This document shows, piece by piece, positions 63,111-64,000 of a stretch of DNA of 64,000 nucleotides; the first letter of the stretch is position 1, and each line of letters starts with the position of its first letter. Below the pieces are notes generated by a model. That model saw only the letters and a program-made list of their open reading frames with translations, did no database searches and had not been told where the DNA came from. Position numbers and translations under genes: made by a program. Origin of the DNA: a virus; IMG/VR virus record IMGVR_UViG_3300020190_005317. One strand, written 5' to 3'.

Positions 63111-63737
63111 TTATTTTGTTTTTGGTATTCTACAGAATGATACGATAATATACCTCTGGCCTGAAAGTACAGGAAGTCCACCATGTCTATGGGTGGTTTG
63201 ACCTGGGTGTATTGACACCTCACCTTTTTTTCCTTGAAGTCTTGTTTTTTGTCTAGCAAAATATGTTCCTCCTCCCGTGAAATCCTCATTAAGAGTAACC
63301 ACAGTTGTTATTTGTGACCAATCGTGGTGTAAAGAAAGGTGATATTGAGCATATGGGTGATATCTTGCCAAAAAGTTCTCTGATTCCAAATTTCTCCAAT
63401 AGTTTTCCTCAAGTTGGAATTTCTCGATTGCAATGTCCCAAAGGTATTCTTTAAGTATACCCTGATAAGTTTCTTGAAGTCCCAGTTCGTTCAATAACAT
63501 ATCTGTGGTTGGATAGTGTTCGTGTCTGTTGAATGTCCATAAATTAGATGCTTCGGCTTCTTCAATTATTTTATCACAAAACTCATCGGTGAATGCTCGA
63601 ACTGTGTAAATATTAGGGATTTCTTCTCTTACATATTGGTTCCATCTTTTACTTCTGAGCTCAGGGGTTAGGAATCTTAGTTTCCATTCGTTAGGATCCT
63701 CAAAGTATTGGAATAATTCAGGATAAAGTTTGGCCAT
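63111..63737 (-). CDS. Procollagen-lysine 5-dioxygenase-like 2OG-Fe(II) oxygenase (PLOD catalytic-domain homolog)
   Basis: SLHHDWSQITTVVTLNEDFTGGGTYFARQKTRLQGKKGEVSIHPGQTTHRHGGLPVLSGQRYIIVSFCRIP parallels the PLOD C-terminal HHDAST...GGGCRF...[26 protein letters not shown].VSF block. This includes the HxD and distal His Fe ligands and the Arg for 2OG. Confidence 0.8.
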   Translation of the reverse strand: MAKLYPELFQYFEDPNEWKLRFLTPELRSKRWNQYVREEIPNIYTVRAFTDEFCDKIIEEAEASNLWTFNRHEHYPTTDMLLNELGLQETYQGILKEYLWDIAIEKFQLEENYWRNLESENFLARYHPYAQYHLSLHHDWSQITTVVTLNEDFTGGGTYFARQKTRLQGKKGEVSIHPGQTTHRHGGLPVLSGQRYIIVSFCRIPKTK

Positions 63738-64000
63738 GGTCTGATATAAAAAGATTAAGAGAGTTGTTTATACCTGATTTCACAAAGTTCTTACCGTATC
63801 TGTGAGTTATTCTGCCAGGAAAGAAATATAGATGTCCTTGTTTTGGTTCAATTTCGAAATTGTATTTCGGAAAGTAGAGTTGTCCTCCTGTTGAGTCTGA
63901 ATCCAACTTAACATAACAAGTGATCATAGACCCGTCGTGTCTTACCCTGAGGTCTTGATTTTTTCTGAGTTTATTAATTTTTTGATAGAGTTGTACTTTT
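63718..64000 (-). CDS. Prolyl 4-hydroxylase-like 2OG-Fe(II) oxygenase, partial (5' end beyond window)
   Basis: The open frame continues upstream of the annotated Met to the window edge (...VRHDGSMITCYVKLDSDSTGGQLYFPKYNFEIEPKQGHLYFFPGRITHRYGKNFVKSGINNSLNLFI). This is an RHD(G) HxD motif plus a GG.L.FP...P..G.l.FF....H...V..G.R pattern typical of 2OG-FeII_Oxy_3/P4H. Confidence 0.65.
   Translation of the reverse strand, partial: KVQLYQKINKLRKNQDLRVRHDGSMITCYVKLDSDSTGGQLYFPKYNFEIEPKQGHLYFFPGRITHRYGKNFVKSGINNSLNLFISDHGQTLS

What the first reader, a model, noticed from the sequence alone, without database searches (positions are those of the whole stretch)
63111..64000. Two adjacent 2OG-Fe(II) oxygenases: a PLOD-like lysyl hydroxylase and a prolyl-4-hydroxylase-like enzyme
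63111..63737 reproduces the PLOD catalytic core, including HHD...GGG...HPG..TH.H.GLP...G.RYI.VSF. The neighbouring partial gene at the window end has a P4H-like HxD...GG.L.FP...P..G...FF...H...G core. Paired Lys and Pro hydroxylases next to recombination genes are unexpected in a phage. They would supply the Hyl acceptor sites for the glycosyltransferase at 34655..37417 and could stabilise the collagen triple helices of the fibres.
Basis: partly seen in the sequence, partly recalled or inferred. Interest (0 to 1): 0.8.

Follow-up and report, generated by a model that had tools for sequence, protein, structure and literature searches.

The report
Phage collagen lysyl hydroxylase plus dead paralogue
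An uncultured freshwater bacteriophage encodes a small enzyme closely resembling the animal and mimivirus collagen lysine hydroxylase, next to a catalytically degenerate copy of it (not a proline hydroxylase); with a collagen-type sugar-adding enzyme and three collagen-like fibre genes in the same genome, this suggests that phages modify their fibres the way animals modify collagen.

Summary
Both genes lie on the minus strand.

**Gene A (63111..63737, 208 aa)** is a stand-alone PLOD-type lysyl hydroxylase (LH) domain.
- Its best solved relatives are human LH3 (E 4e-25) and mimivirus L230.
- The AF2 model superposes on LH3 (TM 0.87). Prolyl hydroxylases score far lower (TM about 0.5).
- All five Fe/2OG residues are invariant in 71 homologues.

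**Gene B (63718..64000, cut by the window end)** was completed to 205 aa from an identical metagenome contig. It is not P4H-like.
- It is a tandem LH paralogue of A (29% identity) and overlaps A by 20 nt.
- It has lost four of the five catalytic or cofactor residues, yet it is well conserved. It is probably non-catalytic.

- Three collagen-like fibre genes carry Lys almost only at the Y position of GXY (46 against 1).
- A 920-aa fusion combines a COLGALT1-like GT25 domain with a PLOD glucosyltransferase domain.
- In other uncultured myophages, and in cultured cyanophage S-CAM9, the LH domain is fused to such glycosyltransferases directly after collagen-like fibre genes.
- Pro is almost never at Y, so P4H sites are scarce.

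No report of a phage LH turned up in the literature I could search. No biochemistry exists.

The parts
63111..63737 (-). Gene A: stand-alone PLOD-type lysyl hydroxylase domain (208 aa). Residues Y126, H137, D139, H185 and R195 correspond to L230 Y814, H825, D827, H877 and R887.
   Evidence: ORF. PDB phmmer: LH3 E 3.9e-25, L230 E 1.7e-21. Pfam OGFOD2-like plus 2OG-FeII_Oxy_3. AF2 pLDDT 88.9; Foldseek LH3 TM 0.87, L230 TM 0.82/0.86. Catalytic residues invariant in 71 homologues. L230 residue roles from PMC5802723.
63718..64000 (-). Gene B, C-terminal 93 codons plus stop. The N-terminal 112 aa lie beyond the window end. It is a catalytically degenerate tandem paralogue of gene A and overlaps A's start by 20 nt.
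   Evidence: Translation. Full 205 aa from L001, 100% identical DNA. 29% identity to A, E 7e-21. Best PDB and fold hits are LH3 and L230. H185 to Y is invariant, R195 is not conserved, Y126 to F, H137 to R in 39 of 55.
34655..37417 (-). 920-aa glycosyltransferase fusion: a GT25 domain (COLGALT1-like, res 4-248), a PLOD GT domain (res about 252-425 plus a second stretch, with a D-S-Y-D metal/UDP motif), and an inserted SAM-methyltransferase domain.
   Evidence: Pfam GT_PLOD 1.9e-69, Glyco_transf_25 1e-22, Methyltransf_23. PDB: LH3 1e-55, mimivirus R699 1.8e-43, COLGALT1 1.1e-38. D-x-Y-D as in R699 D83/Y85/D86.
28096..31242 (-). Collagen-like fibre protein 3 (1048 aa), with a C-terminal Peptidase_S74 chaperone domain.
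   Evidence: Pfam Collagen 6e-102, Peptidase_S74 8e-16. 244 GXY triplets, Pro 153 at X and 6 at Y, Lys 3 at Y.
25166..28096 (-). Collagen-like fibre protein 2 (976 aa), rich in G-x-K-G (for example GPKGYI, GFKGNI).
   Evidence: Pfam Collagen 5e-91, Peptidase_S74. Lys 26 at Y and 1 at X.
22387..25173 (-). Collagen-like fibre protein 1 (928 aa), with GSKGSQ and GAKGSQ repeats and regular GPSPxG register breaks.
   Evidence: Pfam Collagen 4e-42, Peptidase_S74. Lys 17 at Y and 0 at X.

Best explanation
**Gene A** encodes an Fe(II)/2-oxoglutarate-dependent lysyl hydroxylase of the PLOD LH-domain family. Inferred role: in the infected bacterial cytoplasm it hydroxylates Lys at the Y position of G-X-K-G triplets in the phage's three collagen-like fibre proteins, before they trimerise. 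The resulting hydroxylysines would be acceptor sites for the 920-aa glycosyltransferase. That enzyme's GT25 domain resembles the collagen galactosyltransferase, and its PLOD-GT domain resembles the galactosyl-hydroxylysine glucosyltransferase. The fibres would then carry O-linked sugars, as animal and mimivirus collagen does.

**Gene B** is a tandem duplicate of A that kept the LH fold but lost the iron and 2OG ligands. It is most likely a non-catalytic partner. LH enzymes work as dimers whose interface forms the collagen-binding cleft, so a heterodimer role is plausible. B is not a prolyl hydroxylase.

**Shown:** family membership, catalytic residues, fold, gene context, and fusions in relatives. 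**Inferred:** the substrate, the chemistry at C5, the sugar identities, and the A-B partnership.
For: **A belongs to the LH family.**
- The full-length LH3 and L230 sequence match and fold match are well separated from P4Hs.
- Y126, H137, D139, H185 and R195 are invariant in 71 homologues. They map onto residues shown by mutagenesis to be needed in L230 (PMC5802723).

**Substrate and downstream enzyme are in the same genome.**
- Collagen plus Peptidase_S74 fibres have Lys 46:1 at Y over X.
- The GT25 plus PLOD-GT fusion is at 34655..37417.

**Fusions and adjacency in other phages.**
- I took 31 IMG/VR loci with at least 6 kb upstream of the LH match.
- In 30 of them the LH domain is the C-terminus of a 558-810 aa GT fusion.
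- In 28 of them there is an upstream same-strand collagen-like ORF with 23-192 GxKG motifs.
- Tail-sheath genes lie nearby.

**A cultured example.** Cyanophage S-CAM9 has a GT25-PLOD_GT-LH triple fusion just after a collagen-like tail fibre.

**Lineage-level conservation.**
- A diverged relative carries GT (63% identity) and B plus A (A 82% identity) on one 63-kb contig.
- The GT-to-collagen arrangement is conserved in the wider lineage.
- In a rough NJ tree, A groups with the GT-fused phage LH domains rather than with bacterial chromosomal ones.

**Gene B.** It is 29% identical to A, has the LH fold (TM 0.70-0.80), and shows an invariant THRYG motif. Its losses are listed. It lies directly upstream of A in 19 of 19 loci of this clade.
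Against: - There is no biochemical or proteomic evidence for Hyl or glycans in any phage fibre.
- In this phage A is stand-alone. It lies in the replication/recombination block (primase ... SbcD/SbcC), 26-40 kb from the GT and collagen genes.
- Stand-alone homologues (39-45% identity) sit in Thiothrix chromosomes among housekeeping genes, with no collagen-like ORF within 8 kb. The family is therefore not tied to collagen everywhere.
- Window A has Thr where L230 has the dimer-lock Leu873. The A-B heterodimer idea is untested.
- The NJ tree has no support values.
- Genome-level co-occurrence in this clade is shown for only two genomes.
Confidence: 0.68

Rival explanations
1. One reading: a paired Lys hydroxylase (A) and prolyl-4-hydroxylase (B) that together modify and stabilise the collagen-like fibres.
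For: Both have the 2OG-oxygenase DSBH fold. P4H structures appear among weaker hits for B. Viral collagen P4Hs exist, for example PBCV-1 vCPH in the PDB list.
Against: B's nearest sequence and structure relatives are LH3 and L230 (E 0.004 against 0.27; TM 0.70-0.80 against 0.55-0.63). B is a paralogue of A. Its distal His is invariantly Tyr, the Arg at +10 and the 2OG-binding Tyr are lost, and the first His is Arg in this phage. Only 14 of 636 GXY triplets have Pro at Y.
Confidence: 0.04
2. A is an LH-fold hydroxylase whose real target is not the collagen-like fibres. The target would be some other phage or host protein, or a small molecule, as for the stand-alone bacterial homologues. Its co-occurrence with collagen genes in this genome would be incidental.
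For: A is stand-alone and sits between primase and SbcD/SbcC, far from the fibre genes. Thiotrichales chromosomes carry stand-alone homologues next to UbiD, RecQ and GlyQS without nearby collagen-like ORFs. T7-like Pseudomonas phages of 42 kb carry distant full-length homologues.
Against: A is closer (47-53% identity) to phage LH domains fused to GTs beside collagen-like ORFs than to the bacterial forms (39-45%). The same genome has abundant X-K-G sites and Hyl-type GTs, which need a hydroxylase. Human LH3 scores higher against A than any cultured-phage protein does.
Confidence: 0.2
3. B is an active enzyme with a non-canonical metal site built from its invariant His133, Asp134, His178 and Tyr180. 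It would carry out a different oxidation or a 2OG-independent reaction on the fibres.
For: B is under clear constraint: 28 invariant positions across 36-96% identity, including H133, D134, H178, R179, Y180 and G181. The confident LH-fold model has pLDDT 89.9.
Against: No known DSBH oxygenase uses this ligand set (my own knowledge). Y126 to F and R195 to N/variable remove both 2OG C5-carboxylate contacts. The WTxxRHxxYPTTD segment, invariant in A, is gone.
Confidence: 0.12

Closest known systems
Mimivirus L230 (bifunctional collagen lysyl hydroxylase/glycosyltransferase) together with R699 (Gal-Hyl glucosyltransferase)
   Same: Both are virus-encoded collagen-modification sets alongside virus-encoded collagen-like proteins. 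The LH domains share fold and catalytic residues (TM 0.82/0.86, about 29% identity). The PLOD-GT domain is homologous to R699 (E 1.8e-43) with the same D-x-Y-D motif. The best BFVD hit is the Megavirus L230 orthologue.
   Different: The host here is a bacterium: the window encodes a sigma-70-type factor, and a relative encodes an amidase endolysin. LH is a separate 208-aa protein rather than the C-terminus of a GT-LH fusion. It is accompanied by a degenerate LH paralogue. The GT protein adds a COLGALT-like GT25 domain and an inserted methyltransferase. The substrates are tail-fibre-type proteins with Peptidase_S74 chaperone domains.
Animal PLOD1-3 (LH1-3) with COLGALT1/2
   Same: The LH domain aligns over its whole length with LH3 residues 525-736, with identical HHD...THxH...R motifs. 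The GT25 domain matches the COLGALT1 catalytic domain (E 1e-38) and the GT domain matches LH3 (E 1e-55). The substrate motif X-Lys-Gly is present.
   Different: There is no ER, the domains are split or rearranged, and there is no sign of telopeptide or cross-linking biology. Activity is unproven.
Cyanophage S-CAM9 / S-PRM1 / S-8S5x and Roseobacter phage CRP-6 'hypothetical proteins' (GT25-PLOD_GT-LH triple fusions)
   Same: They have the same three domain types, and in S-CAM9 the gene lies next to a collagen-like, Peptidase_S74 tail fibre with GxKG repeats.
   Different: All three activities sit in one polypeptide. The LH domain is only about 28% identical to A and has Lys instead of Arg at the +10 position. 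There is no degenerate paralogue. They are annotated only as hypothetical or 2OG oxygenase.
Generic phage '2OG-Fe(II) oxygenase' auxiliary genes and viral or bacterial prolyl-4-hydroxylases (PBCV-1 vCPH, B. anthracis P4H)
   Same: They share the DSBH fold and the Fe/2OG chemistry.
   Different: They are much weaker matches (TM about 0.5-0.6, E 1e-6 or worse). They lack the LH-specific N-terminal region that A and B share with PLODs.

Membership tests
PLOD-type collagen lysyl hydroxylase (LH domain) - gene A | DSBH fold closest to LH3/L230, including the LH-specific N-terminal helical region | tested here: met
   phmmer covers query 3-202 against LH3 525-736, E 3.9e-25. AF2 model against 6fxr gives TM 0.87, rmsd 2.1 A; against 6ax6 gives TM 0.82/0.86. 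The next class (P4H) is at E 1e-6, TM about 0.5.
PLOD-type collagen lysyl hydroxylase (LH domain) - gene A | Fe(II) facial triad HxD...H | tested here: met
   H137, D139 and H185 are invariant in 71 homologues and align with the LH3 HHD/THYH motifs and L230 H825/D827/H877.
PLOD-type collagen lysyl hydroxylase (LH domain) - gene A | 2OG C5-carboxylate ligands (Tyr 11 residues before the first His; Arg 10 residues after the distal His) | tested here: met
   Y126 and R195 are invariant, with the same spacing as L230 Y814 and R887.
PLOD-type collagen lysyl hydroxylase (LH domain) - gene A | Tail-to-tail dimer locked by a hydrophobic Leu (L230 L873) in an aromatic pocket | tested here: inconclusive
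   The position aligned with L873 is Ile or Val in most family members but Thr in the window protein. The pocket residues could not be mapped reliably. No multimer prediction was possible.
PLOD-type collagen lysyl hydroxylase (LH domain) - gene A | Collagenous X-Lys-Gly substrate available | tested here: met
   Three Collagen plus Peptidase_S74 proteins have 46 Lys at Y and 1 at X.
PLOD-type collagen lysyl hydroxylase (LH domain) - gene A | Covalent fusion to GT and accessory domains, as in PLOD1-3 and L230 | tested here: not met
   A is a 208-aa single-domain protein. Relatives in other phages are fused to GT domains. This is an architectural difference, not a catalytic one.
PLOD-type collagen lysyl hydroxylase (LH domain) - gene A | Formation of 5-hydroxylysine with 2OG decarboxylation | not testable with these tools
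   Needs an enzyme assay or mass spectrometry.
Collagen prolyl-4-hydroxylase - gene B | Closest sequence and structure relatives are P4Hs | tested here: not met
   Best PDB hits are LH3 (E 0.004) against P4H (E 0.27). Foldseek gives LH3/L230 TM 0.70-0.80 against P4H 0.55-0.63. B is a paralogue of A, E 7e-21.
Collagen prolyl-4-hydroxylase - gene B | Intact HxD...H triad and a basic 2OG-binding residue | tested here: not met
   The sequence reads RHD instead of HxD in this phage. The distal His is Tyr in 56 of 56 sequences. The +10 Arg is Asn or variable, and the 2OG-binding Tyr is Phe.
Collagen prolyl-4-hydroxylase - gene B | X-Pro-Gly sites in the presumed substrates | tested here: not met
   Pro is at Y in 14 of 636 triplets and at X in 262.
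Collagen Hyl glycosyltransferases (COLGALT GT25 domain plus PLOD/R699 GT domain) - 34655..37417 | Homology of both domains to the collagen enzymes, and the D-x-Y-D metal/UDP motif | tested here: met
   Pfam GT_PLOD 1.9e-69 and Glyco_transf_25 1e-22. PDB: LH3 1e-55, R699 1.8e-43, COLGALT1 1.1e-38. The 'TDSYDV' motif is visible in the sequence and corresponds to R699 D83/Y85/D86. Sugar specificity was not tested.

The most novel reading that the evidence does not exclude
Bacteriophages, including cultured marine cyanophages and a broad uncultured freshwater and marine myophage lineage, carry a complete collagen-type Lys hydroxylation and Hyl-O-glycosylation pathway. It would operate in the bacterial cytoplasm on their collagen-like fibres. 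In this lineage the pathway would include a conserved pseudo-hydroxylase subunit that partners the active LH. The LH, COLGALT and PLOD-GT domain set, regarded as an animal and giant-virus speciality, would then have a deep and diverse prokaryotic-virus pool. That bears on where the metazoan collagen-modification machinery came from.
Probability: 0.55. Interest if true: 0.82.

Novelty: new variant of a known kind. Interest (0 to 1): 0.7.

Why it matters
Collagen lysine hydroxylation followed by Gal-Glc glycosylation is textbook animal biochemistry. Outside animals it is documented only for mimivirus. Reviews state that prokaryotic and phage collagen-like proteins are essentially unmodified (PMC8968730). 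Glycosyltransferases in phage tail-fibre regions have been read as LPS modifiers (PMC7029224).

If phage fibres are hydroxylated and glycosylated by phage enzymes, four things follow:
- It changes how tail-fibre stability, host recognition and antigenicity are interpreted in abundant aquatic phages.
- It gives small, soluble, bacterially expressed LH and Hyl-GT enzymes for making modified recombinant collagens.
- It supplies cultured test systems (S-CAM9, S-PRM1, CRP-6).
- It opens the evolutionary origin of PLOD and COLGALT to direct phylogenetic testing.

The conserved dead paralogue is a possible natural example of a pseudoenzyme partner for an LH dimer.

Tried and rejected
- **blastn against phages.** blastn of 62500..64000 against 50,697 phage genomes found nothing. 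No cultured close relative exists.
- **PHROG 'DNA endonuclease' labels.** These labels (phrog_2297, phrog_274) appear for A and B. I rejected them as family mis-naming. The top PHROG is 2OG-Fe(II) oxygenase, and the fold and residues are LH.
- **P4H reading of B.** Rejected.
- **Eukaryotic giant-virus origin of the window.** I considered this because the PLOD-GT domain's best IMG/VR relatives are GVMAGs. I rejected it because the window encodes a sigma-70-type factor and Peptidase_S74 fibres. Relatives also have an Amidase_2/PG-binding endolysin and tail sheath genes.
- **Contig-level LH/GT co-occurrence through IMG/VR scans.** This failed. The single-protein scan gave 3 hits. The top 80 of the alignment scan did not include the LH-clade contigs. 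Exact-protein look-ups solved part of it: one 63-kb contig carries both.
- **AFDB fold search.** Not available.
- **Mapping of the L230 dimer pocket onto A and B.** Unreliable because of indels.
- **PHROG and Pfam scans of about 30 other window ORFs.** Mostly no hits. The lineage is poorly known.
- **Literature.** Eight full-text searches found no report of a phage lysyl hydroxylase. The library is incomplete, so this is absence of evidence only.
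Full report
**What is at the coordinates.** Both genes are on the minus strand.
- Gene A is a complete ORF at 63111..63737 (208 aa).
- Gene B ends at 63718, overlaps A's start codon by 20 nt, and runs off the window end. Only its last 93 codons are in the window.
- The exact gene A protein occurs on at least 23 metagenome contigs, the longest listed at 167.6 kb. Contig L001 is 100% identical to the window over the 890 shared bases. It supplies full-length B (205 aa).
- The long ORF 62843..63289 that overlaps A is really an 88-aa gene starting at 63109, as called on those contigs.

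**Gene A is a PLOD-type lysyl hydroxylase domain.**
- Against all PDB sequences the best hits are human LH3/PLOD3 (E 3.9e-25, query 3-202 against LH3 525-736) and mimivirus L230 (E 1.7e-21). Prolyl hydroxylases follow at E about 0.06.
- Pfam gives only borderline OGFOD2-like and 2OG-FeII_Oxy_3 hits.
- An AF2 model built on 29 homologues (pLDDT 88.9) superposes on LH3 (TM 0.87, rmsd 2.1 A) and L230 (TM 0.82/0.86). The next class, P4Hs and other DSBH enzymes, is at E about 1e-6 and TM about 0.5.
- Among predicted viral structures the best hit is the Megavirus L230 orthologue, then a 610-aa unnamed protein (UniProt A0A516KWN1).
- The L230 residues shown by mutagenesis to bind Fe (H825, D827, H877) and 2OG (Y814, R887) (PMC5802723) correspond to H137, D139, H185, Y126 and R195. 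These are invariant in 71 homologues.

**Gene B is not P4H-like.**
- It is a tandem paralogue of A: 29% identity, E 7e-21, same length and same N-terminal region.
- Its best PDB hits are LH3 (E 0.004), ahead of P4Hs (E 0.27).
- Its AF2 model (pLDDT 89.9) matches LH3 and L230 at TM 0.70-0.80, against 0.55-0.63 for P4Hs.
- Across 56 family members the distal His is always Tyr (invariant THRYG). The Arg at +10 is Asn or variable. The 2OG-binding Tyr is Phe. The first His of HxD is Arg in 39 members, including this phage, and His in 16. The WTxxRHxxYPTTD segment that is invariant in A is gone.
- The family nevertheless has 28 invariant positions over 36-96% identity. B lies immediately upstream of A in all 19 loci of this clade. 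It is therefore a maintained gene and most probably not a dioxygenase.

**Context in the window.**
- The three ORFs at 22387..31242 are Collagen plus Peptidase_S74 (intramolecular chaperone) fibre proteins.
- Within their 636 GXY triplets, Lys is at Y 46 times and at X once. Pro is at X 262 times and at Y 14 times. LH-type X-Lys-Gly sites are therefore plentiful and P4H-type X-Pro-Gly sites are rare.
- The 920-aa protein at 34655..37417 has three parts: a GT25 domain homologous to the COLGALT1 catalytic domain (E 1e-38); a PLOD GT domain (LH3 E 1e-55, mimivirus R699 E 2e-43) with the D-x-Y-D motif; and an inserted SAM-methyltransferase domain.
- The window is a bacteriophage. It encodes a sigma-70-type factor. 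A relative with the same synteny has an Amidase_2/PG-binding endolysin.
- It has no close cultured relative.

**Evidence from elsewhere.**
- *Uncultured phages.* IMG/VR holds 281 contigs with an A relative. I took 31 loci at 47-53% identity with at least 6 kb upstream. In 30 the LH domain is the C-terminus of a 558-810 aa protein with GT4/GT1 domains, with or without GT25. In 28 there is a large collagen-like ORF upstream on the same strand, with 23-192 GxKG motifs. Tail-sheath genes lie just downstream.
- *Cultured phages.* S-CAM9 has a collagen-like, Peptidase_S74 tail fibre (22 GxKG), then two 2OG oxygenases, then a 614-aa 'hypothetical protein'. That protein is a GT25-PLOD_GT-LH triple fusion. 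The same fusion is in S-PRM1, S-8S53/55/56 and Roseobacter phage CRP-6, always annotated as hypothetical. Many 870-940 aa metagenomic proteins carry GT25, GT_PLOD, OGFOD2-like and 2OG domains together.
- *This lineage.* The primase-285aa-B-A-SbcD-SbcC block is conserved. So is the DnaJ-Dam-LRR-GT...collagen block. One 63-kb contig carries both blocks, with GT at 63% and A at 82% identity.
- *Tree.* A rough NJ tree places A among the GT-fused phage LH domains, apart from bacterial chromosomal homologues.

**Caveats.**
- A is stand-alone and lies in the replication/recombination block, 26-40 kb from the GT and fibre genes.
- Stand-alone homologues (39-45% identity) occur in Thiothrix and other Thiotrichales chromosomes beside UbiD, RecQ and GlyQS. 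No collagen-like ORF lies within 8 kb. The family is therefore not obligatorily collagen-linked.
- Window A has Thr at the position of the L230 dimer-lock Leu873.
- Nothing here demonstrates Hyl, glycans or an A-B complex.

**Comparison with the known.** Functionally this looks like the animal PLOD/COLGALT pathway and the mimivirus L230/R699 system. It differs in five ways:
- The host is a bacterium.
- The LH domain is split off as a separate protein.
- A conserved degenerate LH paralogue sits next to it.
- The GT fusion has a GT25 plus PLOD-GT plus methyltransferase architecture.
- The substrates are tail-fibre-type proteins.

Eight full-text searches found no description of a phage lysyl hydroxylase. 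A 2022 review treats prokaryotic and phage collagens as essentially unmodified and names only mimivirus as hydroxylating and glycosylating its collagen. A pelagimyophage study read GTs in tail-fibre regions as LPS modifiers. A 2010 comparative-genomics paper predicted hydroxylation of bacterial collagen-like proteins, but by other dioxygenase families.

**Verdict.**
- The Lys-hydroxylase, glycosyltransferase and collagen-fibre link is well supported by homology, structure prediction, residue conservation, domain fusions and gene neighbourhoods.
- The Pro-hydroxylase half is not supported.
- This is a new variant of a known kind of system. It is of clear interest and testable in cultured phages.

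Noticed in passing
window 34655..37417 (-), residues about 450-600 of the 920-aa protein: A SAM-dependent methyltransferase domain is inserted inside the PLOD GT/accessory region of the glycosyltransferase fusion. Relatives exist with (920 aa) and without (692 aa) the N-terminal GT25 domain. The methyl acceptor is unknown.
   Followed up: partly
window 22387..31242 (-): The collagen-like genes are GC 0.46-0.48 against about 0.33 for the rest of the window. Gene 22387..25173 has regular G-P-S-P-x-G breaks of the GXY register. Long antisense ORFs (for example 29119..30744 +, 541 aa) are repeat artefacts. Thr and Gln dominate the Y position.
   Followed up: partly
window 40238..41164 (-), 39131..39970 (-), 37747..39087 (-): A full-length DnaJ (J domain, CXXCXGXG zinc centre, C-terminal domain), a Dam-type N6-adenine methyltransferase and an LRR protein lie just upstream of the GT gene. 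The block DnaJ-Dam-LRR-GT is conserved in relatives (L217, L221).
   Followed up: partly
window 49672..50472 (-), 54488..55756 (-), 52895..54466 (+), 8200..8272 (-): A sigma-70-type sigma factor (phrog_351, E 3e-52), a UvrC-like GIY-YIG plus RNase H-domain endonuclease, a MORN-repeat protein and a tRNA-Met. Most other ORFs have no PHROG or Pfam hit, so the lineage is poorly characterised.
   Followed up: no
L221-L223 (relatives; for example ENA STOR20-1 scaffold_14, 214 kb), about 14161..19364: Between the GT and the collagen-like gene, related phage contigs carry a TonB-dependent receptor (Plug plus beta-barrel) and a glutamine synthetase, followed by thioredoxin and glutaredoxin genes.
   Followed up: no
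L176 (Synechococcus phage S-CAM9 KU686205.1, 27709-44212), 6705..8549: 'Hypothetical protein' AOV60406.1 is a GT25-PLOD_GT-LH triple fusion. It lies right after a collagen-like tail fibre and two further 2OG-Fe(II) oxygenases. The same fusion is in S-PRM1, S-8S53/55/56 and Roseobacter podophage CRP-6. These are cultured systems for testing fibre hydroxylation and glycosylation.
   Followed up: partly
L183-L207 (for example L193, Thiothrix eikelboomii ATCC 49788, 7950..8615): Stand-alone LH-domain homologues (39-45% identical to gene A) sit in Thiotrichales chromosomes among housekeeping genes (UbiD, RecQ, GlyQS). No collagen-like ORF lies within 8 kb, and their substrate is unknown.
   Followed up: partly
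L096, L099, L105, L107, L132 (IMG/VR GVMAG contigs): The closest IMG/VR relatives of the phage PLOD-GT domain (42-46% identity) are on giant-virus MAG contigs. This hints at exchange of collagen-modification domains between phages and Nucleocytoviricota.
   Followed up: no
window 62843..63109 (-) and 62556..62792 (-): An 88-aa protein (phrog_13182, unknown function) and a 78-aa zinc-ribbon-like protein lie between gene A and the SbcD gene. In the contigs identical to the window and in a relative with 82% identity in A, an 88-aa gene and a 78-81-aa gene occupy the same positions after A.
   Followed up: no
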